Origin: Terriglobia bacterium
Lineage (GTDB): Bacteria; Acidobacteriota; Terriglobia; JAJPHL01; JAPKYU01
Length of the DNA: 64,000 nucleotides
Assembly (NCBI GenBank): GCA_965223005.1
Contig: CBDCVK010000008.1
Location: 160,001-224,000 of the forward strand
Direction of reading: 5' to 3'
Below the pieces are notes generated by a model. That model had not been told where the DNA came from. It searched no databases and was given only the letters and a program-made list of their open reading frames with translations. Positions 42,528 to 52,944 of the stretch are shown in pieces. Numbering within the stretch: position 1 is the first letter of the stretch; each line of letters begins with the position of its first letter. A program made the translations under genes and the position numbers.

Positions 42528-43121
42528 ATGAAGAGACGCTCTGCCAAAGTCGAGCGCAACACGACGGAAACGCAAATCCGCGCGCGGCTGGTGCTGGACG
42601 GTCGCGGGCGAGCCCGCGTCCGCACCGGCGTGCGCTTCCTGGACCACATGCTGGAGCTGTTTGCCAAGCACGGCGGCTTCGATCTCGACCTGCAGGCCAC
42701 CGGCGACCTGGACGTGGACCAGCACCATACCGTCGAGGACGTGGGCATCGTGCTCGGCCAGTGCTTCGACCGCGCTCTGGGCGACCGCCGCGGCATCAAC
42801 CGCGCCGGCTATTTCCTGATGCCCATGGACGAAACGCTGGCTTTGGCGGTGGTGGATTTGAGCGGGCGGCCTGTGTTGGTGTATCACGCACCACTGCGCG
42901 TGCGGCGGGTGGGCGACCTTCAGGCCGAACTGCTGGAGGACTTTTTCAGCGGCCTTGCCACTCATGTTCGAGCCAACCTGCACCTGAAGCTGCTCTATGG
43001 CCGCTCTTCCCACCACAAGGTTGAGGGGCTGTTCAAGGCGCTGGCCCGCGCCCTGCGCGTGGCCTGCTCGCGCGACCGCCGCTTGGCCCGCGAGCTGCCC
43101 AGCACCAAAGGCCTGTTGTGA
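42528..43121 (+). CDS. hisB: Imidazoleglycerol-phosphate dehydratase
   Basis: [41 protein letters not shown]. Confidence 0.96.
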
Positions 43122-43159
43122 AGAGACAACGCAAAGTCGCAAAGACATCTAGGAACGCT

Positions 43160-43792
43160 ATGATCGCTGTCATTGATTACGGGGCAGGGAATTTGCGCTC
43201 GGTGTCGAATGCGCTGGCAGTGCTGGACGCCGAGTTCTTGGTCACCAAGGAACCGTCGGGGCTGGAGCAGGCCTCGGCCATCATTCTGCCCGGCGTGGGG
43301 CACTTCGGGCAGATGATGGAGGCGTTGGAAGCCGCCCGACTGGCCGCCCCGTTGCGCCAGAGGCTCGAGTCCGGTACGCCCTACCTGGGCATCTGCCTGG
43401 GAATGCAGGCGCTATTTGAATCAAGCGAAGAGGCACCGGGGCTACGCGGCCTGGCTCTGCTTCCGGGCCAAGTCCGGCGCTTCCCCACTGGCCAGAAAGT
43501 GCCGCACATGGGCTGGGCCGAAGTCGAGCCTGGCAGCGCCAAAGCAGGGGCGTTCCTTGCCCAAGTATGCGGCCGCATGTATTACTTCGCCCATTCCTAC
43601 TACGTGCCCGCCGATGCAGAGGGCTCCGCGGCTACCGCGCGGCACGGGTTGCCGTTCACTGCGGTGCTGCGCCGCGCTAACCTGGTCGGCTCACAGTTCC
43701 ATCCTGAAAAGTCGGGGCCGGCCGGACTCAATTTCCTGCGCACCTGGGTTGAGCAATGCCAGCAAAACGCATCATCGCCTGCCTCGACGTGA
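43160..43792 (+). CDS. hisH: Imidazole glycerol phosphate synthase, glutaminase subunit
   Basis: [37 protein letters not shown]. Confidence 0.95.
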
Positions 43793-44517
43793 AGGACGGG
43801 CGCGTGGTCAAAGGCGTCCGCTTCGTCAACCTGCGGGACGCCGGCGATCCGCCCGACCTGGCGGCCGCCTACAGCGAAGTGGGCATTGACGAGGTGGTAT
43901 TTCTGGACATCACCGCGTCGGCCGAAGGACGCGGGCTGATGGTCGGGATCGTGGAGCGCACAGCGCAGAAGGTGTTCATCCCGCTGGCGGTGGGCGGCGG
44001 CGTGCGCAACGTGGAGGACGCGCGGCGCCTGCTCCGCGCCGGCGCCGACAAGGTTTCGGTAAACACGGCAGCGGTGGAGCGCCCGGCATTGCTCACCGAG
44101 ATGTCCCGCGAGTTTGGCGCGCAGGCGGTGGTACTGGCCATAGACGCAAAGCGTGAGGGGAATGGCTGGCGCGTCCACACCTACGGCGGGCGCCGTCCGG
44201 TTGAGCGGGACGCGGTAGCCTGGGCCGCGGAGGGGGAGCGGCTGGGTGCGGGGGAAATCCTGCTGACCTCGATGGATTGCGACGGCACCAAGGCTGGCTT
44301 TGATTGCGAGCTGACCCGGGCGGTGGCCCGCGCGGTGGGCATCCCCGTCATCGCCTCCGGCGGTGGAGGTGAGCCGGCGCATTTCTATGACGTGCTGACC
44401 GCAGGGCAGGCCGACGCGGCGCTGGCCGCCTCCATCTTCCACTACGCCGAGATTCCCGTCAGCGACCTGAAGCGCTACCTCGACCAGCGCGGTGTCCCCA
44501 TGCGCATGATCGAATAG
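43756..44517 (+). CDS. hisF: Imidazole glycerol phosphate synthase, cyclase subunit
   Basis: [54 protein letters not shown]. Confidence 0.96.
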
Positions 44518-44528
44518 GAATTTAATGA

Positions 44529-44591
44529 ATCCGCAGATTGCGCAGATTTTCACAGATTTCTTTTTCTGCGGAATCTGCGAAATCCGCGGAT
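44529..44591. repeat. REP-like element, CCGCAGAT family, copy 2
   Basis: ATCCGCAGATTGCGCAGATTTTCACAGAT...TCTGCGGAATCTGCGAAATCCGCGGAT. Confidence 0.8.
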
Positions 44592-45309
44592 GTTTCCCAT
44601 GATTATTCCGTGCATTGACTTGATGGAAGGCAAGGCGGTGCAACTGGTGCGCGGCCAGACGAAGGCCCTGGAGCGCGCCGACGTTCTGGGGCAACTGGAG
44701 GAGTTCGCCGGCTTTCCTGAAATCCAGGTCATTGACCTGGATGCCGCCATGGGCAGAGGAAGCAACGACCCTCTGGTGCGCCAGCTCTGTGCCCGCGCGC
44801 GCTGCCGCGTGGGCGGCGGCGTGCGCACTACGGCCCGCGCCGAGCAGTTGCTCGGTGCGGGGGCGAGCAAGCTGATTGTCGGCACCTCCGCTTTTCACAG
44901 CCAGGGGATCAACGCGCCGTTCCTGGAGTCGCTGCGGGACGCCTCCGGCGCTGCATGCATCATCCTGGCGCTGGACTCCCACCATGGCCGCATTGTGGTG
45001 CGGGGCTGGCGCGAGTCCACCGGGCTGGCGGCTGAGCAGATCGTGCGCGAGCTAGAGCCTTACTGTGGCGAGTTCCTGTGCACCTTTGTGGATAACGAAG
45101 GCACCATGACCGGCACGGACCTGGAGTGGTTCCGGCGGCTCCGCCAGGCCACCGCGAGGCCCATCACGGCTGCCGGTGGCATCGCCACCCTGGAAGAGAT
45201 CGCTGCCCTCGATGAGCTGGGGATCCATGCCGCGCTGGGCATGGCGGTCTATACCGGCCGCCTGCGCCTGGAGGATCTGCGCGCCTTTCGCCCACGGACT
45301 GCCGGATGA
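44590..45309 (+). CDS. hisA: ProFAR isomerase
   Basis: IIPCIDLMEGKAVQLVRG, IDLDAA, VGGGVR, EGTMTG; start may be the ATG at 44599. Confidence 0.9.
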   Translation: MFPMIIPCIDLMEGKAVQLVRGQTKALERADVLGQLEEFAGFPEIQVIDLDAAMGRGSNDPLVRQLCARARCRVGGGVRTTARAEQLLGAGASKLIVGTSAFHSQGINAPFLESLRDASGAACIILALDSHHGRIVVRGWRESTGLAAEQIVRELEPYCGEFLCTFVDNEGTMTGTDLEWFRRLRQATARPITAAGGIATLEEIAALDELGIHAALGMAVYTGRLRLEDLRAFRPRTAG

Positions 45310-45362
45310 GCGCCTTTGTGCTAGAATCCGCTCGACAGGCTAAACCCGGAGGAGGTGGAGCT

Positions 45363-45677
45363 ATGACCAGGCTAGGAAGCTTGTTTGGCATTGGGCTGTT
45401 GCTGATGGGGCCGCTGGTTGCCGCGCAGCACGCCGTGGCCGGCAAGGAGAAGACTGTCTCGCTCGCAATCAGCGGCATGACCTGAAACGCCTGCGCCAGC
45501 ACAGTGCGGTCTGCACTGCAAGAGGTGAAGGGCGTCAAGGAAGCCAAGGTCTCACTGGCGGACAACGAGGCCGTCGTGAAATACGACCCCGAGGTCTGCA
45601 AAGTCGACGACCTCATCCAAGCGGTGAAGAAGGCGCGCGGGATGAGCCGGTACGACGCCAAGGTCAAAAAGAAGTAG
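45363..45677 (+). CDS. Exported heavy-metal-associated (MerP/CopZ-like) selenoprotein with UxxC motif; absent from the ORF track
   Basis: GGAGGAGG RBS, ATG 45363, signal peptide, KTVSLAISGMT-TGA(45483-85)-NACASTVRSALQEVKGVKEAKVSL...AVVKYDP...DDLIQAVKK; frame open to TAG 45677 (104 aa). Confidence 0.85.
45486..45518 (+). promoter_or_regulatory. Putative bacterial SECIS element
   Basis: CAGTGC-GGTCT-GCACTG hairpin; loop begins 22 nt after the UGA and resembles the E. coli fdhF SECIS tip (UGCAGGUCUGCA). Confidence 0.75.
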
Positions 45678-45758: not shown

Positions 45759-45867
45759 CGCCTGAGCCAGGGCTATTCGCCTGGCATTTTCTAGGACTCA
45801 GGACAGAACTTCCTGAGCAAACTCAAATGATTGTAAATAAATGGCTTCTTTGCCGGAAGCTCGCCTA

Positions 45868-45896
45868 TTGACTTTCGCTTTTAATTCGCCTACCAT
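45868..45896 (+). promoter_or_regulatory. Promoter of the PolB2 cassette with direct-repeat operator candidate
   Basis: TTGACT, 17-nt spacer, TACCAT; spacer contains TTCGC-N6-TTCGC (45874-45889). Confidence 0.65.
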
Positions 45897-45955
45897 GAAT
45901 TTGCTAGCGATTGCTGAGTGGCTGCCCGCAACGCCCCGAGTGCGGCTTGGCCTCT

Positions 45956-46573
45956 ATGAGTTTGGTGCCTGCAACCCCGAGCCTTCGTCTCCCTGTGGCA
46001 GGGCAACCCTGGCGGCTGCCCGCGCAGGGGTTAGCAGTCTTTCAGGGGGAGGGTTGCGCGGCGCGGCTTTCTCACTATTTCCTTCCGCGGGTCTTTCTCG
46101 CCGGCAAGCATGTCCTGTACCTGGACGGCGCCAACCGGGTGGACCCTCTGCTGATCGCGCGCTTTGCGCGGCAGCGCGGACGTGAGCCGGCGGAGTTCAA
46201 TCGCCGCATAAAAGTCGCCCGCGCCTTCACCTGTTTCCAGCTTACCGAATTGCTGGCCCGGGTGCCGCGGGCGCTTCGAGCCTTTCCGGCGGACATTCTG
46301 ATCGTCACTGCCTTCCCGGATTTGTATTTCGATGAAGACGTGCCCGATGGTGCCGCGTACGCCTCCTTCGGTCAGGCCCTCCAGCACTTGAAGCGACTGC
46401 GCGCGTCGCTGCCGGTGGCGGTGTTCTCTGACGCTGCCTCCTTCACCACGCCGCGAAGAAGATTGTTCGACCGGGTGGTCGCCGGGGCGGACCAGGTATG
46501 GAGGTTCACGCTGCAGGCGGACGGAAAACCGCAACTGCTCTGCGAACGCTCCTGCCTGCGGTTACCTGCTTGA
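45956..46573 (+). CDS. Inactivated RadA/RecA-like protein (iRadA, ImuA-analogous)
   Basis: RecA-fold remnants VLYLDGANRVDP, IKVARAFTCFQL, ILIVT; Walker A eroded (FQGEGCA, no GKT). Confidence 0.75.
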   Translation: MSLVPATPSLRLPVAGQPWRLPAQGLAVFQGEGCAARLSHYFLPRVFLAGKHVLYLDGANRVDPLLIARFARQRGREPAEFNRRIKVARAFTCFQLTELLARVPRALRAFPADILIVTAFPDLYFDEDVPDGAAYASFGQALQHLKRLRASLPVAVFSDAASFTTPRRRLFDRVVAGADQVWRFTLQADGKPQLLCERSCLRLPA

Positions 46574-46580
46574 GAGCGCT

Positions 46581-46949
46581 ATGGGTCGCACCGTTCCAAC
46601 CTTTCGCCAGCTGATTGATCAGGCGGTAGAGCGCTGGGCGAAGTTCCGCCGGGCGCTGCGGCGGGAGGATCAGGAGCATTTCGACCGCCTGTTCCTGCGC
46701 GTCCGCTCCTACACGCAGGCGGCGACCTACCAGGCGAGCGACAATCCGATGGAAGCCATCCTGCTGTCCATCGCGCTGGACCAGGAGAAGCGATTGCGGG
46801 CACTCGAGCGGCGCCTGTGGCAAGCGGAGGGAGGGCATGCGACTACAAGGATGGCTCCTGGACCTCTATCCCAGCCCGCAGGGGATGACCCTGTGGTTGA
46901 TCGAAGAGGGCCAGACGCGCCACCGCCAGAGACACCATCGGCTGATTGA
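46581..46949 (+). CDS. Small helical PolB2-associated protein (arCOG07300/PPB2-like)
   Basis: MGRTVPTFR...W.KFRRALRREDQ.HFD.LF...PMEAILLSI.L signature; overlaps the polB start. Confidence 0.8.
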   Translation: MGRTVPTFRQLIDQAVERWAKFRRALRREDQEHFDRLFLRVRSYTQAATYQASDNPMEAILLSIALDQEKRLRALERRLWQAEGGHATTRMAPGPLSQPAGDDPVVDRRGPDAPPPETPSAD

Positions 46950-49119
46950 TCCGTTTACGCCCGCCTTCTTCGCACACGGTGCCCCGACCCGGCTGCGGCG
47001 GCTTCAGGAGGCCCTCGGGCGGCGAACTCCCCTGAGGTGCCAACTGACCGAGCGCGCCGATCTGTGGCAGCCAACACCGCTCCAGGTGCTGGAGGTCACT
47101 GTCCCGTACCCCACCGCGTTTGCCTCCTGGGTGCGCTGGGTTCATCGGTTCGATCCCGACCTACGGCTCTACAACAGCGACCTCATGCTTGCCCCCCTCT
47201 ATTGCTGGGAGAAGCGGGTGTTCCCCTTCGCCCGAGTGGAGGTGGAGGTGGACGACAAGGGGCAGGTGCGTGCTCTCCAGTGCCAGGACAGCGAGTGGGC
47301 GCTGGACTACCCGCTGCCGCCGCTCCAGGTGATGCACCTGCGGCTGGAGGGGCTGTCGGCGGTCAACCCCCGGCACGGACGGCGCGGCGCGCTGGAGGTG
47401 GAGGTGGACGGCGAGTGCTCGGTCATCGAAGAATCCGCCGAGCCTGCGGTGGTCACAGTGCAGCACCTTGTGGAGCGGCACGACCCGGATCTGATCCTCT
47501 CGGAGTGGGGCGACTCCACCATCTTTCCGCTCCTGCGCCAGCAAGCCCAGCGGTTGAACCTTCCCCTGCCGCTCAACCGGGATGCCAGCCTGCCGGTGCA
47601 CCAGAGCCGCGCCCGAAGCTTTATGAGCTACGGGCGGATTCTGTTCAAGGACAGCGCAACCACGCTCTACGGGCGGCTGCACGTGGATCTGAGCAATTCC
47701 TTCATCGCCGATCATTGCCAGCAGGACGGGCTGTGGGAGCTGGCCCGGCTCACCAAGCTGCCGGTGCAGTATGCCGCCCGCACGACCACCGGCACGGGCA
47801 TCTCTTACATGCAGATGGAGGTGGCCTACCGCGACGGCATCCTCATCCCGGAGCAAAAGAGTGAGCCAGAGGACTTCAAGCACCCCGACCAGCTTCTGAT
47901 CGCCGACCGCGGCGGGCTGGTCTTCCCACCCATCCTGGGGTTCCACGAGAACGTGGCCGAGCTGGACTTCCCCTCCCAGTTCCCCAGCATCATGGTGCAC
48001 TTCAATGTGTCCTCGGAGACGGTGAATTGCCGCTGCTGCCCGGAGAGTCCCCCCATTCCCGAGGTGGGCTACCGCATCTGCCGCAAGCGGCAAGGAGTGG
48101 TGGGACGCACCGTCGCCCCGCTGATTGAAAAACGGCAGCAGTACAAAGAGCACATGCGGCAAACCGCAGACGCCGCCTTGCTGGAGACCTACCGGCGCCG
48201 CCGGGAGGCGCAGAAGTGGCTGCTGGTCTGCTGCTTCGGCTATTTGGGGTACAAGAACGCCCGGCTGGGCAAGATTGAGGCTCACGAGAGCATCAATGCC
48301 ATCGGGCGCGAGCAGCTTCTGGTGGCCAAGGAAACGGCCGAGCAGCGCGGGTTCCGCGTCCTGCACGCCATCGTGGACAGCATGTACGTGCAGAAACCGC
48401 AGGCCGTCCGGGAAGACTATCTGGCGCTGGCCGAGGAGATTGGCGAGCGGGCCGGCTTGCCTATTGCGCTGGAGGCCCTGTATCGCTACATCGTGTTCCT
48501 GCCTTCCAAGCAATTTGCCGGCGTCCCGGTGCCCAACCGCTTCTTCGCCGTCAGCGAGGAAGCCGAGTTGAAGGTGCGGGGCCTGGAGTGTCGCCGCCAC
48601 GACACTCCGCCCCTGGTCGCCCGGATGCAGAAGCAAATCCTCGCTATCCTGGCCGAAGCGTGCGACCGCCAGAGTTATCGCCAGAAGCTGGAGGAAGCCC
48701 GCGGTGTGCTGGAGCGCTACCTGGAGCGGCTGGAGAGTGGCATGGTGGCGGTGGAGGATTTGGTGATCAGCAAGCGTCTCACCCGTCCGCCGCGCGACTA
48801 TCAGAAGGCCAGCCTGACGGCCATCGCCGCCCAGCAACTGTTCGGGCGAGGCGTGCAGCTCCGTCCGGGGCAGACGGTGGAGTACGTCATCACCGACGCG
48901 GCGGCCGCGCTCCCCAATGACCGCGTCCGCGCCTATGCCCTGTGGGAAGGCTGGCACGGCTATGACCGCAAGAAATACCGCGACCTGTTACTGGAAGCTT
49001 TTCACACCCTGGAAAGCCCCTTCCGCGCCTCTCTGCCAACGTCCGCCCAACCAAGGTTGACCGTCTCGTCTTCCAGCGTCGCGCAGCCTCCCGTAGAAAC
49101 CAGCGGTTTACCGCGCTAG
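46837..49119 (+). CDS. Family B DNA polymerase, PolB2 group, with altered catalytic motifs
   Basis: DRGGLVFPP..GFHENV.ELDFPSQFPSIM..NVS.ET, KWLLVCCFGYLGYKNAR.GKIEAHE.INA..R, HAIVDS, KVRGLE.RR.DTP; GGAGGG RBS. Confidence 0.9.
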   Translation: MRLQGWLLDLYPSPQGMTLWLIEEGQTRHRQRHHRLIDPFTPAFFAHGAPTRLRRLQEALGRRTPLRCQLTERADLWQPTPLQVLEVTVPYPTAFASWVRWVHRFDPDLRLYNSDLMLAPLYCWEKRVFPFARVEVEVDDKGQVRALQCQDSEWALDYPLPPLQVMHLRLEGLSAVNPRHGRRGALEVEVDGECSVIEESAEPAVVTVQHLVERHDPDLILSEWGDSTIFPLLRQQAQRLNLPLPLNRDASLPVHQSRARSFMSYGRILFKDSATTLYGRLHVDLSNSFIADHCQQDGLWELARLTKLPVQYAARTTTGTGISYMQMEVAYRDGILIPEQKSEPEDFKHPDQLLIADRGGLVFPPILGFHENVAELDFPSQFPSIMVHFNVSSETVNCRCCPESPPIPEVGYRICRKRQGVVGRTVAPLIEKRQQYKEHMRQTADAALLETYRRRREAQKWLLVCCFGYLGYKNARLGKIEAHESINAIGREQLLVAKETAEQRGFRVLHAIVDSMYVQKPQAVREDYLALAEEIGERAGLPIALEALYRYIVFLPSKQFAGVPVPNRFFAVSEEAELKVRGLECRRHDTPPLVARMQKQILAILAEACDRQSYRQKLEEARGVLERYLERLESGMVAVEDLVISKRLTRPPRDYQKASLTAIAAQQLFGRGVQLRPGQTVEYVITDAAAALPNDRVRAYALWEGWHGYDRKKYRDLLLEAFHTLESPFRASLPTSAQPRLTVSSSSVAQPPVETSGLPR

Positions 49120-50018
49120 CTGGTGGTGGGTTCTTCGATGGCGCCGGAGCGGCGGACCACCTCCAGGAAGGCGCGGGCCGCGTGGGAAAGATGGCGGCGG
49201 CCGGGGTGCAGCAGGCGGATCTTGCGCTCCACGCGCAGCTCCTTGATGGGCACCTCGACCAGCGTGCCCGCCTCCAGCTCCTGCTCCACCACCATCCGCG
49301 GCAGAAAGGCCACCCCCATCCGCGACTGCACCGCCTTCTTGATGGCCTCCAGCGTGGGCATCTCCACCTCCATATTGAGCGGCACTTTGTGCTTCTGGAA
49401 AGCGCGCAGCACGGTTTGCCGGTAGGGGGAAATGACGTTGTGGGCGATAAAGATCTCGATCCCCAGGTCCCGGATCTTGACTGTCTGCTTCCCCCCAAGG
49501 CGGTGTCCCGGATAGACCACAAAGGCCAGATGGTCGGTGTAGATGATCATGGACCGAAGGTTGCGGTCCGCAGGCTCGTAGGAGATGACGCCCAGTTCCA
49601 CCGAATTCTCCAGCACGTCCTGCGGGATGCGGCTGGAGAGGCTGCGGCGCACCTCCACCTTCAGCCGCGGGTAGAGGGCGCGGAAGTTGTGAACGTGGCG
49701 CAGCAGGTAGATGACGCCGCTCTCGTTGGCGCCGATGGTGAGCCGTCCGGTGCTGTTGTCGCGCAGCTCCACCAGCGCGTTGTTCAGGTCGCGGCGCAGG
49801 TTCTCAAACTTTTGCGCGTACTCCAGCACGATGCGCCCGGCGTCGGTGAGCGTGCCGTCTTTCAGCGAGCGGTCCACCAGCGTCTCGCCTAATTCCGCCT
49901 CCAGCTTTTGCAGCGCTAGGCTGACGGCGGGCTGGGTCCGCAACAGCCGCTGGGCGGCCCGGGAGAAGCTTTTTTCGGTGGCCACGGCCAGGAAGACTTC
50001 CAGTTGGCTGAGTTCCAT
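49116..50018 (-). CDS. LysR-family transcriptional regulator
   Basis: SFSRAAQRLLRTQPAVS..LQKLEAELG HTH, GRLTIGA, EAIKKAVQ..MGVAFLP; divergent from leuA. Confidence 0.95.
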   Translation of the reverse strand: MELSQLEVFLAVATEKSFSRAAQRLLRTQPAVSLALQKLEAELGETLVDRSLKDGTLTDAGRIVLEYAQKFENLRRDLNNALVELRDNSTGRLTIGANESGVIYLLRHVHNFRALYPRLKVEVRRSLSSRIPQDVLENSVELGVISYEPADRNLRSMIIYTDHLAFVVYPGHRLGGKQTVKIRDLGIEIFIAHNVISPYRQTVLRAFQKHKVPLNMEVEMPTLEAIKKAVQSRMGVAFLPRMVVEQELEAGTLVEVPIKELRVERKIRLLHPGRRHLSHAARAFLEVVRRSGAIEEPTTS

Positions 50019-50028
50019 GGCGGTGAGT

Positions 50029-50043
50029 ATAACAGAAGCTTAT
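50029..50043. promoter_or_regulatory. LysR binding site (T-N11-A dyad)
   Basis: ATAA-CAGAAGC-TTAT in the AT-rich lysR/leuA spacer. Confidence 0.65.
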
Positions 50044-50131
50044 CTTCCTACAAGAATTATAAATTTGCGTTATCCAGCCAGGTCCGGCATGCTAGGACTT
50101 TCGGCACTGAGCGTCAGCCCCGGAGGTTTCG

Positions 50132-51706
<1,575 letters not shown>

Positions 51707-51708
51707 TA

Positions 51709-51802
51709 ATCCGCAGATTGCGCAGATTTCGCAGATGCTGAGGCTCGACCCGGAGAGTCCCGGCTGGCCGCCCATGTGTGCCAATCTGCGACATCTGCGG
51801 AT
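51709..51802. repeat. REP-like element, CCGCAGAT family, copy 3
   Basis: ATCCGCAGATTGCGCAGATTTCGCAGAT...AATCTGCGACATCTGCGGAT between leuA and leuB. Confidence 0.8.
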
Positions 51803-51894
51803 AGAAAAATGCTTCCATTTTCTTCCCGCATACGAATACTTTCGTGAGGGGAGAAGTTGAGCGTTTCATGCTAAGAGAGGTTCACTAAAAATTC

Positions 51895-52944
51895 ATGCGC
51901 TTAAAAATTGCGGTTTTGCCCGGGGACGGAATCGGCGTCGAAGTGACCTGCGAAGCGATGAAGGTCATCGAGCGAGTGGCCAAACTTTTCGGCCACGACG
52001 TAGAAACCTGTCAAGGATTGGTGGGCGGCGCGGCCATTCACGCCACAGGCGACCCGCTGCCCCCGGAAACGTTGGAGGCGGCGCGGGACTGTGCCGCCAT
52101 CTTGTTTGGCGCGGCTGGCGCGCCGGAATTCGACAACTGGCCCGCCGAGAAGCGCCCGGAACGCGGCCTGCTCCGCCTGCGCAAGGAGTTGGACCTGTTC
52201 GCCAACCTGCGCCCGGCGCGCATCCTCCCGGGGCTGGAGAGATTTTCTCCACTACGGGCCGAGGTGGTGCAAGGCACCGACCTGTTGATGGTCCGCGAGC
52301 TCTCGAGCGGCATCTACTACGGCACGCCGCGCGAGCTGGCCGCCGACCACGGGCTGAACACCCTGCTCTACACGCGGCAGGAAGTCGATCGAGTCGCGCG
52401 CACCGCCTTTGAACTGGCCCGAGGGCGCCGCAAGAAGCTGACCTCGGTGGACAAGGCCAACGTTCTGGAAACGTCGCAGTTCTGGCGGGGAGTGGTCAAC
52501 GAAGTCGCCGCTGAATTTCCCGACGTCGAGCTGGAGCATGCCCTGGTAGATAGCTGCGCGATGAGGCTGGTGACGGATCCGCGCACCTTCGACGTGTTGC
52601 TGACCGAGAACATGTTCGGCGACATCCTCAGCGACGAAGCGGCCGTACTGGCCGGCTCCCTCGGCATGCTGGCCTCGGCCTCGCTGGGCAGCGGTCCCGG
52701 GCTCTACGAGCCGGTGCACGGCAGCGCGCCGGACATCGCCGGTCAGGACGCCGCCAACCCGCTAGGCGCGATCGGGTCGGCGGCCCTGATGCTTCGCCAT
52801 TCGTTCAAGCTGGAGCGCGAGGCGTCGGCGATTGAAGCGGCCGTGGAGCAGGTGGTGGCTTCCGGAATGCGGACGCCCGACTTGGGCGGCCGGGCCGGCA
52901 CCCGCCAGGTGGGCGATGCCCTCTGCCAGGCGCTGCGCTCCTGA
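51895..52944 (+). CDS. leuB: 3-isopropylmalate dehydrogenase
   Basis: [46 protein letters not shown]. Confidence 0.96.

What the first reader, a model, noticed from the sequence alone, without database searches (positions are those of the whole stretch)
45868..49119. Archaeal-type iRadA + small helical partner + PolB2 cassette: candidate DNA damage-tolerance system in an acidobacterium
Seen: three tightly coupled genes behind one sigma70 promoter. They encode a RecA/RadA-fold protein without Walker A, a MGRTVP...FRRALR helical protein, and a B-family polymerase. The polymerase motifs are rewritten: A = DFPSQFP (vs DFxSLYP), B = KWLLVCCFG (vs KxxxNSxYG), C = AIVDS (vs YGDTDS), and no clear Exo motifs are visible. 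Established: archaeal PolB2 genes co-occur with an arCOG07300-type small protein and an inactivated RadA. Inference: this is a proofreading-deficient polymerase complex analogous to ImuA-ImuB-DnaE2 but built on PolB. The two key Asp (motif A and the last of motif C) are kept, so it may be active. I know of no experimental characterisation in bacteria.
Basis: partly seen in the sequence, partly recalled or inferred. Interest (0 to 1): 0.82.

Follow-up and report, generated by a model that had tools for sequence, protein, structure and literature searches.

The report
SOS-controlled bacterial PolB2 mutasome operon
This is an ordinary member of an already described three-gene operon (inactive RadA, small helical PPB2, proofreading-less B-family polymerase PolB2) that bacteria took from archaea for damage-tolerant DNA synthesis; here its promoter carries the same operator as the genome's own lexA gene.

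Summary
Three same-strand genes lie behind one promoter: iRadA (45956-46573), PPB2 (46581-46949) and PolB2 (46837-49119).

Makarova 2014 (PMC4104785) describes the operon in archaea and several bacteria. Timinskas 2025 (PMC11791011) models the PolB2-PPB2x3-iRadA "mutasome". That paper states that bacteria hold only the order iRadA-PPB2-PolB2.

Most sequence hallmarks are met:
- PPB2 starts MGRT, with Arg3 and Arg9.
- iRadA has a RadA/Rad51 core without Walker A or B residues.
- PolB2 keeps D377, K460 and D514 but reads IVD where other B-family polymerases read DxD.
- No exonuclease domain is detected.
- A complex model supports PolB2-iRadA contact through the loop before the D(K/R) motif (ipSAE 0.84, best control 0.00).

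What I add is the operator. A 17-nt direct repeat (TTCGC-N6-TTCGCC) fills the promoter spacer. Only three exact copies exist in the 3.24-Mb genome: here, at lexA, and beside a radical-SAM gene. It recurs (2 or fewer mismatches) at 32 of 33 Acidobacteriota-labelled cassettes and (3 or fewer) at lexA promoters of five relatives.

This predicts LexA (SOS) control. Nothing here is experimental. I score it as a new member of a known kind, of modest interest.

The parts
45766..45785 (+). Terminator-like hairpin followed by a T-rich run. It probably ends the upstream unit, so the cassette would be its own transcription unit.
   Evidence: consensus scan only
45868..45873 (+). -35 hexamer TTGACT
   Evidence: TTGAC(T/A) is conserved at the same place in relatives' cassettes
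45874..45890 (+). Predicted LexA operator TTCGCTTTTAATTCGCC, a direct repeat TTCGC-N6-TTCGC. It fills the 17-nt promoter spacer exactly.
   Evidence: There are 3 exact matches to TTCGCTTTWWATTCGCC in the 3.24-Mb genome against 0.0005 expected, and one of them is in the lexA promoter. It is conserved at 32 of 33 Acidobacteriota-labelled cassettes and at lexA promoters of five relatives.
45891..45896 (+). -10 hexamer TACCAT
   Evidence: TA-rich hexamers lie at the same place in relatives
45956..46573 (+). iRadA: a RadA/Rad51-core protein of 205 aa with no N-terminal domain and no Walker A or B residues. An upstream TTG at 45911 would give 220 aa.
   Evidence: model pLDDT 86.8; Foldseek top hits are RadA/Rad51, E 8.6e-10, TM 0.65
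46581..46949 (+). PPB2 (formerly arCOG07300): N-terminal MGRT arm with R3 and R9, three helices (8-25, 28-51, 56-89), and a disordered tail (86-122) encoded in overlap with polB2.
   Evidence: the motif is as defined in PMC11791011
46826..46835 (+). Shine-Dalgarno-like GGAGGGAGGG for polB2, inside the PPB2 reading frame
   Evidence: read from the sequence
46837..49119 (+). PolB2: a B-family polymerase of 760 aa. Motif A has D377, motif B has K460, and motif C reads I512-V513-D514. The exonuclease domain is degenerate.
47854..47898 (+). PolB2 residues 340-354 (QKSEPEDFKHPDQLL): the loop predicted to dock on iRadA. It is followed by D357-R358, my assignment of the published D(K/R) motif.
   Evidence: interface list; conservation; for the published description

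Best explanation
The locus is a three-gene operon for a bacterial PolB2 'mutasome'. PolB2 is the catalytic subunit, a B-family polymerase that keeps the two metal-binding Asp and the motif-B Lys but has lost proofreading. iRadA, a RadA/Rad51 core that can no longer bind ATP, is predicted to dock on a PolB2 loop in the way Rad51 subunits dock on each other. PPB2 is a three-helix protein said in the literature to form a trimer. Its conserved MGRT arm is said to reach into the cleft between PolB2 and iRadA, near the DNA.

The promoter's 17-nt spacer is a direct-repeat operator identical in type to the one in the promoter of the genome's own lexA. In undamaged cells LexA would therefore sit between the -35 and -10 hexamers and block transcription. 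After DNA damage LexA cleavage would release the operon. The complex would then extend primer ends past lesions at the price of mutations, as Sulfolobus Dpo2 does.

Shown here: gene anatomy, family hallmarks, conserved neighbourhood, shared operator, and a supportive interface model.

Inferred: LexA binding, damage induction, polymerase activity, the PPB2 trimer, and the translesion role.
For: Identity:
- PF00136 E 1.9e-32. The best NCBIfam model is an archaeal-type 'type B polymerase', NF004416, at 369 bits, against 59.9 bits for a Pol II model.
- The best PDB sequence matches are Thermococcales PolB, E 1.6e-51.
- The alignment puts IVD opposite DTD, the same change as the 401-IID-403 of active S. 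islandicus Dpo2. D377, K460 and D514 are invariant in A3.
- PPB2 starts MGRTVPTFR. M1, G2, R3 and T4 are invariant in 13 of 13 aligned sequences. The model has three helices.
- The iRadA model has pLDDT 86.8, and RadA/Rad51 cores are the top Foldseek hits.

Neighbourhood:
- Among 12 loci from relatives (own locus included), tblastn found PPB2 in 11 and iRadA in 10. The misses are a contig-end locus and one locus with an inserted ORF.
- Of the 80 best of 564 related loci in species genomes, both partners lie upstream in order in 33 of 33 Acidobacteriota-labelled loci, 2 of 2 oddly labelled loci and 32 of 34 other loci that have at least 1300 nt of flank.

Binding: for PolB2 with iRadA the ipSAE is 0.84 in three runs, with a best control of 0.00. 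That mark was reached by 58 of 80 solved complexes and 2 of 110 mismatched pairs, roughly applicable because my own alignments were used. The runs share at least 89% of contacts and the partner pLDDT is at least 83. The PolB2 side is residues 340-354, just before D357-R358. This matches the published mode.

Regulation:
- The operator has 3 exact copies in the genome against 0.0005 expected: lexA, this cassette, and a site abutting a PA0069/Rv2578c-family radical-SAM gene.
- A PWM built only from other genomes' sites ranks these three first, at 36.6, 34.9 and 24.2 bits.
- lexA promoters of five relatives carry it with 0-3 mismatches, between the -35 and -10 hexamers.
- In 17 of 41 loci of other phyla lexA itself lies within 3 kb upstream, as reported.

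Function by homology: Dpo2 is damage-induced and solely responsible for targeted mutagenesis (abstract). It is an active, exonuclease-free mismatch and lesion extender (abstract).

Genome context: there is one Pol IV, which has no operator hit, and one DnaE. I found no second Y-family or DnaE2 gene.
Against: - No experiment on any bacterial member was found, so activity and induction rest on archaeal relatives.
- Motif B has lost the N, S and Y of KxxxNSxYG (alignment). The first metal-site Asp is lost. NF004416 is matched below its cut-off (369 against 516 bits).
- No archaeal PolB2 sequence could be fetched, so placement inside the PolB2 clade is indirect.
- recA has no such operator. The predicted regulon is unusually small for an SOS system, and the factor that binds the operator is inferred, not shown.
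- Neither iRadA nor PolB2 ends in a canonical QLxLF clamp motif; iRadA ends CLRLPA.
- The PPB2 monomer model is only of middling confidence (pLDDT 66). The trimer and pentamer were not modelled.
- No RNA run was available.
Confidence: 0.8

Rival explanations
1. The complex is catalytically dead.
For: The first Asp of DxD is lost, motif B is heavily rewritten, and no exonuclease domain is detected. Makarova 2014 proposed inactivation and a regulatory or repair role.
Against: S. islandicus Dpo2 has the same IxD change and is a robust polymerase. D377, K460 and D514 and long stretches of palm, fingers and thumb are invariant across phyla. That degree of conservation is what an active site under selection would show.
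Confidence: 0.08
2. The operon is a PolB2 mutasome, but the shared 17-nt repeat is the site of another regulator, or merely a lineage-specific promoter element. Expression would then not be LexA- or damage-controlled.
For: LexA binding was not tested. recA and dinB lack the site. Only three sites exist. The motif differs at its outer bases from the GTTC-N7-GTTC box seen for Caulobacter; that the same box holds for Acidobacterium capsulatum is recalled from Mazon 2006, of which only the title was seen.
Against: The site sits in the lexA promoter of six genomes from four genera, and autoregulation is the usual LexA arrangement. In other phyla lexA is physically joined to the same cassette. Direct-repeat LexA boxes are documented, and a radical-SAM gene belongs to another phylum's LexA regulon (PMC7739468 passages).
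Confidence: 0.1
3. The polymerase belongs to a mobile element, a phage, or the E. coli Pol II group, and the neighbours are incidental.
For: JGI annotations of homologs read 'DNA polymerase II'. The cassette is patchy: 12 of 41 relatives and 3 full-length hits in 401 genomes of the phylum.
Against: The flanks read as his and leu biosynthesis genes, by eye, and GC is even across the region. In a quick tree the window lies in a 19-row clade of operon-type polymerases (SH-aLRT 99), apart from E. coli Pol II and nine other B-family polymerases of the phylum. Pol II NCBIfam models score 60 bits or less against cut-offs of 570 or more. I recognised no Pol II, RB69 or phi29 chain among the 56 PDB matches (entry codes recalled). 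The partners are conserved neighbours.
Confidence: 0.02

Closest known systems
Bacterial PolB2 operons / PolB2 mutasome (Makarova 2014, PMC4104785; Timinskas 2025, PMC11791011)
   Same: The same three proteins occur in the only order reported for bacteria (iRadA-PPB2-PolB2). It has the MGRT arm with R3 and R9, a RadA core without ATPase residues, IxD in place of DxD, and no exonuclease site. A loop before D(K/R) is predicted to bind iRadA. It is linked to LexA.
   Different: lexA is not adjacent here. Instead, the promoter carries the operator of the distant lexA gene. PPB2 runs 113 nt into polB2 (98 nt in most Acidobacteriota-labelled loci). There is no canonical clamp-binding motif. Whether the papers' supplementary lists already hold this lineage could not be checked, because supplements are closed.
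Sulfolobus islandicus / S. solfataricus Dpo2 (archaeal PolB2; PMC7390963, PMC8764526)
   Same: The polymerase group is the same by its hallmarks, the partner genes are the same, and expression is damage-inducible. It is the only member with genetics and biochemistry.
   Different: The archaeal host uses PCNA rather than the beta clamp, and regulation goes through Orc1/Cdc6-type factors rather than LexA. I made no direct sequence comparison because no archaeal sequence was available.
E. coli Pol V mutasome (UmuD'2C-RecA)
   Same: It is an SOS-controlled, multi-subunit, error-prone polymerase that uses a RecA-family partner bound through an oligomerisation-like motif, plus a small subunit with an inserted N-terminal arm (parallels drawn).
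   Different: Its catalytic subunit is Y-family, RecA is active and shared with recombination, and its small subunit is unrelated.
ImuA-ImuB-DnaE2 cassette
   Same: It is a LexA-regulated three-gene mutagenesis cassette with an inactive RecA-like protein and an accessory subunit. This description is recalled, not tested here.
   Different: Its polymerase is C-family. This genome shows a single DnaE-type gene, so the resemblance is functional only.
E. coli Pol II
   Same: B-family, SOS-induced, described as an extender.
   Different: It is a single subunit with active proofreading. It is distant in sequence and separate in the tree.

Membership tests
PolB2 mutasome operon | B-family polymerase domain | tested here: met
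   PF00136 E 1.9e-32, 113 bits against a cut-off of 23
PolB2 mutasome operon | First Asp of the DxD motif replaced and the second kept. Most PolB2 show this; all bacterial ones do, by Fig. 1 as described. | tested here: met
   I512-V513-D514 aligns with D-T-D of P. abyssi PolB. D514 is invariant in 16 of 16 sequences.
PolB2 mutasome operon | Exonuclease domain without an active site | tested here: met
   There is no PF03104 hit at E<=1. The Exo II-like segment reads WGDSTIF against NGDNFAF of the P. abyssi chain; which residue is catalytic there is recalled. Exo I and Exo III positions were not aligned.
PolB2 mutasome operon | PPB2: a small three-helix protein with N-terminal MGRT and Arg at positions 3 and 9 | tested here: met
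   The sequence starts MGRTVPTFR. M1, G2, R3 and T4 are invariant in A1. Helices are at 8-25, 28-51 and 56-89. MGR- is at the start in 35 of 35 Acidobacteriota-labelled and 34 of 34 other loci.
PolB2 mutasome operon | iRadA: a RadA/Rad51 ATPase core lacking the N-terminal domain and the ATPase residues | tested here: met
   Foldseek top hits are RadA/Rad51. The core starts at residue 26 of 205. GEGCAARL stands where a P-loop would be, and LIVTA aligns with LIVDS.
PolB2 mutasome operon | Gene order iRadA-PPB2-PolB2 on one strand | tested here: met
PolB2 mutasome operon | PolB2 binds iRadA through the loop preceding the D(K/R) motif | tested here: met
   The model supports binding but does not show it. 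ipSAE is 0.84 against a best control of 0.00 (mark reached by 58 of 80 solved complexes and 2 of 110 mismatched pairs). The runs share at least 89% of contacts and the partner pLDDT is at least 83. The interface is residues 340-354, before D357-R358.
PolB2 mutasome operon | PPB2 homotrimer and 1:1:3 heteropentamer | not tested
PolB2 mutasome operon | Beta-clamp motif (QLxLF-like) at the C terminus of iRadA or PolB2. This is present in only a fraction of members. | tested here: inconclusive
   iRadA ends CLRLPA. Relatives end QLRLSV... (P0354) or ...QLRLFQ (L010). No clamp model was run.
PolB2 mutasome operon | Phylogenetic position within PolB2, as a sister of or derived from the archaeal clade | tested here: inconclusive
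   The window groups with operon-type polymerases of Nitrospirota, Chloroflexota and other phyla (SH-aLRT 99), apart from Pol II. No archaeal rows could be obtained.
PolB2 mutasome operon | DNA-damage-inducible expression | not testable with these tools
   It is predicted from the operator only. No RNA holder was listed.
LexA (SOS) regulon | An operator of the same type as in the lexA promoter, placed so as to block RNA polymerase | tested here: met
LexA (SOS) regulon | LexA binds the site and damage de-represses the operon | not testable with these tools
   This needs a gel shift or expression data.
E. coli-type DNA polymerase II | Matches the Pol II family models, and is a single subunit with an intact DEDDy exonuclease | tested here: not met
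   NF004421 scores 59.9 bits against a cut-off of 570. No exonuclease domain is found. It lies on a separate branch.
ImuA-ImuB-DnaE2 | C-family DnaE2 polymerase with ImuB (Y-family-like) | tested here: not met
   The polymerase is B-family. The genome has one PF07733 match and one PF00817 match, the latter being Pol IV.

The most novel reading that the evidence does not exclude
In this acidobacterial lineage the SOS regulon may have shrunk to little more than lexA, a radical-SAM gene and this archaeal-derived cassette. The PolB2 mutasome would then be the cell's only damage-induced mutagenic polymerase, standing in for Pol V or ImuABC. The fixed 98-113-nt overlap of PPB2 with polB2, which has its own ribosome-binding site inside the PPB2 frame, might help set the unequal subunit ratio.
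Probability: 0.3. Interest if true: 0.5.

Novelty: new member of a known kind. Interest (0 to 1): 0.3.

Why it matters
Bacterial PolB2 operons are widespread. The scan found 564 related loci in species genomes and thousands of metagenomic proteins. Even so, every functional statement about them still rests on Sulfolobus.

This locus adds no new kind of system. It does give a clean, testable regulatory prediction for soil Acidobacteriota: a defined 17-nt operator inside a conserved promoter, shared with lexA.

It also suggests that an archaeal-type B-family complex, rather than Pol V or ImuABC, supplies SOS mutagenesis there. That bears on how mutation supply under stress is organised in an abundant but little-studied soil phylum.

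Tried and rejected
- **Archaeal reference sequences for a full PolB tree.** None could be reached. The genome-contig scan returned only bacterial MAGs among its best 80. The control genomes of the genome search give no loci. NF004416 did not discriminate: it rang in all five PolB-bearing controls and passed its cut-off in none.
- **PPB2 fold search** (pdb_via_wide). The best Z was 6.8, with only generic helical matches, and no sigma-factor domain in the 50 rows shown. For a helical model of pLDDT 66 this is uninformative. It neither confirms nor contradicts the published sigma-factor likeness.
- **PF26485.** This is the precomputed Pfam label on PPB2 homologs. It is not in the local Pfam copy, so its name is unknown to me, and my own Pfam scan of PPB2 was blank.
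- **RNA evidence.** No RNA holder was listed, and read laying was not used.
- **Weaker operator candidates.** The next two PWM hits (21.9 and 20.2 bits) lie inside reading frames, and I treated them as chance. recA and dinB upstream regions show no site.
- **Mobile-element reading.** Rejected; see the rival explanations.
- **Mazon 2006.** The paper is not held. Only its title was seen in reference lists, so the A. capsulatum box sequence is recalled.
- **Tree row L018.** It had an aberrant branch (4.14), perhaps from my ORF extraction. I draw nothing from it.
- **Not modelled.** The PPB2 trimer, the full pentamer and clamp binding.
- **Supplements.** The supplements of PMC11791011 (operon lists, taxa, clamp motifs) are closed. 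They may already list this lineage and its lexA context.

Full report
**Anatomy.** The window region 45868-49119 holds three + strand genes.
- The first gene runs from ATG 45956 to 46573 (205 aa). An upstream TTG at 45911 would give 220 aa, but the database gene call for this very sequence (P0241, 205 aa) and most homologs begin at the ATG.
- The second gene (46581-46949, 122 aa) follows after 7 nt.
- The third gene (46837-49119, 760 aa) starts 113 nt before the second ends. Its ATG is preceded by GGAGGGAGGG at 46826-46835. Its first residues align with position 2 of the best NCBIfam model and with relatives, so the overlap is real.
- A terminator-like hairpin (45766-45785) precedes the unit. 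A single promoter-like site, TTGACT-17-TACCAT (45868-45896), is the only one in 4.4 kb.
- By eye the flanks are histidine-biosynthesis genes, a small metal-binding-domain ORF, a convergent LysR-type gene (49116-50018, minus strand) and leuA/leuB. I did not test these identifications. GC is even across the region.

**The three proteins.**

*Gene 3* is a B-family polymerase.
- Pfam DNA_pol_B gives E 1.9e-32, with no exonuclease-domain hit.
- Its best NCBIfam model is the archaeal-type NF004416 (E 4.5e-110, 369 bits, below the 516-bit cut-off). E. coli-type Pol II models reach at most 59.9 bits.
- Against PDB sequences the best matches are Thermococcales PolB (E 1.6e-51), then Pol alpha and S. 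solfataricus Dpo1. I recognised no Pol II, RB69 or phi29 chain among the 56 matches (entry codes recalled).
- The alignment puts LDFPSQFPS opposite LDFRSLYPS, KWLLVCCFGYLGY opposite KILANSYYGYYGY, and HAIVDS opposite YIDTDG.
- So the motif-A Asp (D377), the motif-B Lys (K460) and the second motif-C Asp (D514) are kept, and the first motif-C Asp is Ile. All three kept residues are invariant in 16 of 16 aligned homologs down to 43% identity.
- The Exo II-like stretch reads WGDSTIF.

*Gene 2* starts MGRTVPTFR.
- In 13 aligned homologs M1, G2, R3 and T4 are invariant.
- The model shows three helices and a disordered tail from residue 86, pLDDT 66.

*Gene 1* is a RadA/Rad51 core.
- By sequence it matches Rad51/RadA only weakly (Pfam E 0.008; PDB E 0.007).
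- Its model (pLDDT 86.8, pTM 0.83) has RadA/Rad51 ATPase cores as its top Foldseek hits (E 8.6e-10, TM 0.65, rmsd 3.3 over 197 columns).
- It has no N-terminal domain.
- GEGCAARL stands where the P-loop would be, and LIVTA aligns with the Walker B LIVDS.

**What is known.** This is the PolB2 operon.
- Makarova et al. 2014 (PMC4104785, passages read) linked PolB2, arCOG07300 and inactivated RadA in archaea and in "several bacterial genomes", sometimes with lexA.
- Timinskas et al. 2025 (PMC11791011, sections 3.1-3.3 and Discussion read) named the partners PPB2 and iRadA. They proposed one transfer from archaea to bacteria and found only the order iRadA-PPB2-PolB2 in bacteria.
- From structure models they described a PolB2:iRadA:PPB2x3 pentamer, the MGRT arm with Arg3 and Arg9, a PolB2 loop before a D(K/R) motif that binds iRadA like a Rad51 oligomerisation motif, and clamp motifs in some members.
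- S. islandicus Dpo2 has IID at the active site. It is damage-induced and solely responsible for targeted mutagenesis (abstract). It is an active, exonuclease-free extender of mismatched and lesion-opposed termini (abstract).
- A 2026 survey lists G2/PolB2 as a standard bacterial group and cites only archaeal experiments (passages).
- Two literature searches listed no experimental study of a bacterial member.

**Membership tests.**
- The sequence hallmarks are met, as set out above.
- The neighbourhood is conserved. In 12 loci from 41 related genomes (12 of the 41 have the polymerase), tblastn found PPB2 in 11 and iRadA in 10. The misses are a locus that begins inside polB2 and one in which a 233-aa repetitive ORF separates the genes.
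- A scan of one genome per species found 564 related stretches among 597 pattern matches, and the best 80 were kept. They come from MAGs labelled Acidobacteriota, Nitrospirota, Chloroflexota, Armatimonadota, Bacteroidota/Ignavibacteriales, Thermodesulfobacteriota and others.
- I grouped the 80 loci by record title and searched them with profile HMMs of my alignments. Both partners lie upstream in order in 33 of 33 Acidobacteriota-labelled, 2 of 2 oddly labelled and 32 of 34 other loci that have at least 1300 nt of flank.
- Across a 401-genome sample of the phylum only 3 genomes have a full-length relative; 15 have any B-family hit at E<=1e-20. The cassette is therefore patchy.
- A quick maximum-likelihood tree had 29 rows: the window, 17 of the 80 loci chosen by label, 10 of the 13 other loci (truncated L023, L025 and L027 left out) and E. 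coli Pol II as outgroup. Support is SH-aLRT only, and there are no archaeal or phage rows.
- The tree puts the window in a 5-row clade with Acidobacteriota-labelled loci (100), inside a 19-row clade of operon-type polymerases (99). That clade is apart from Pol II and from nine other polymerases of the phylum.

**Binding.** One complex job was run, PolB2 with iRadA, using my own alignments.
- It gave ipSAE 0.84 in all three runs, with a best control of 0.00.
- The mark was reached by 58 of 80 solved complexes and 2 of 110 mismatched pairs in calibration. These counts hold only roughly here.
- The runs share at least 89% of contacts and the partner pLDDT is at least 83.
- The model supports binding but does not show it.
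- The PolB2 contacts are residues 340-354 (QKSEPEDFKHPDQLL, F347 central). They lie immediately before the invariant D357 and near-invariant R358, which I take to be the published D(K/R) motif. The interface is thus where the paper places it.

**Regulation (my addition).** The 17-nt spacer of the promoter reads TTCGCTTTTAATTCGCC. The promoter of the genome's only lexA reads TTTACA-TTCGCTTTATATTCGCC-TAGACT.
- The pattern TTCGCTTTWWATTCGCC has three exact matches in the 3.24-Mb genome, against 0.0005 expected from base composition. Only four sites have 2 or fewer mismatches.
- The third exact site abuts the start of a PA0069/Rv2578c-family radical-SAM gene.
- A weight matrix built from 39 sites of other genomes only ranks the cassette (36.6 bits), lexA (34.9) and the radical-SAM site (24.2) first. 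The next two hits lie inside reading frames.
- The site recurs with 2 or fewer mismatches upstream of iRadA in 32 of 33 Acidobacteriota-labelled loci, 2 of 2 oddly labelled loci and 0 of 33 loci of other phyla. Wherever I printed the flanks, it lies between a TTGAC-type -35 and a TA-rich -10.
- It also lies in the lexA promoters of five relatives from four genera, with 0, 1, 2, 2 and 3 mismatches.
- In the other phyla lexA itself lies within 3 kb upstream on the same strand in 17 of 41 loci, against 0 of 35 Acidobacteriota-labelled loci.
- Direct-repeat LexA boxes are documented. The literature cites Acidobacterium capsulatum among such cases, and a radical-SAM gene is in another phylum's LexA regulon (PMC7739468 passages). 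The Caulobacter box is GTTC-N7-GTTC.
- The simplest reading is that LexA occludes this promoter and that the operon is SOS-induced.
- recA and the single Pol IV gene lack the site. The genome shows one DnaE-type gene and no second Y-family gene. The cassette is therefore the only polymerase locus that carries the operator.

**Limits.**
- There are no expression data.
- LexA binding, polymerase activity, the PPB2 trimer and clamp use are inferred or untested.
- iRadA ends CLRLPA, not a canonical QLxLF. A more distant relative ends ...QLRLFQ.
- No archaeal sequences were available for the tree.
- The PPB2 fold search was uninformative.

**Verdict.** The system is a further member of a kind already described in print for bacteria. 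The shared lexA-type operator and the small predicted regulon are a modest, testable addition. Interest 0.3.

Noticed in passing
window 46837-46949; loci L031-L110: The PPB2 reading frame ends 113 nt inside polB2 here. It ends 98 nt inside in most of the 33 of 35 Acidobacteriota-labelled loci that overlap by 20 nt or more, and 26 nt inside in 14 of 36 loci of other phyla. The overlapped tail is predicted to be disordered and holds polB2's ribosome-binding site. I did not test whether the tail has a role or is a by-product of the overlap.
   Followed up: partly
G000:C10:365733-366768 (own genome, outside the window): The third exact operator copy abuts the start of a PA0069/Rv2578c-family radical-SAM gene. 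This gene is a likely second member of the predicted LexA regulon.
   Followed up: partly
L017 about 1370-1400 (recA upstream, own genome): recA lacks the TTCGC operator but has a different direct repeat (GTAGTAT ... GTAGTATAA) upstream. This hints at separate control of recA.
   Followed up: no
L009 3950-4651 (minus strand): In one related genome a 233-aa ORF made of RKPEAG-like repeats sits between PPB2 and polB2.
   Followed up: no
L042, L050, L055, L057: Contigs labelled Verrucomicrobiia, Dormiibacterota and Xenobia carry a polB2 that is 55-67% identical to the window's. L042 and L055 also carry the same operator; the other two are truncated upstream. The cause may be mis-binning or recent transfer.
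   Followed up: no
L069, L106: Two polB2 relatives have no iRadA or PPB2 in the 3 kb upstream.
   Followed up: no
window 47965-47990 (PolB2 motif A): The Tyr of the S-x-Y-P-S stretch (the steric-gate position, by recall) is Phe (SQFPS) in the window and a few close relatives. It is Tyr (SEYPS) in most homologs.
   Followed up: no
window 42528-45677 and 49116-52944: By eye from the translations, the flanks are hisB/H/F/A-like genes, a small heavy-metal-associated-domain ORF, a convergent LysR-type regulator overlapping the polB2 stop by 4 nt, and leuA and leuB. No tool was used to check them.
   Followed up: no
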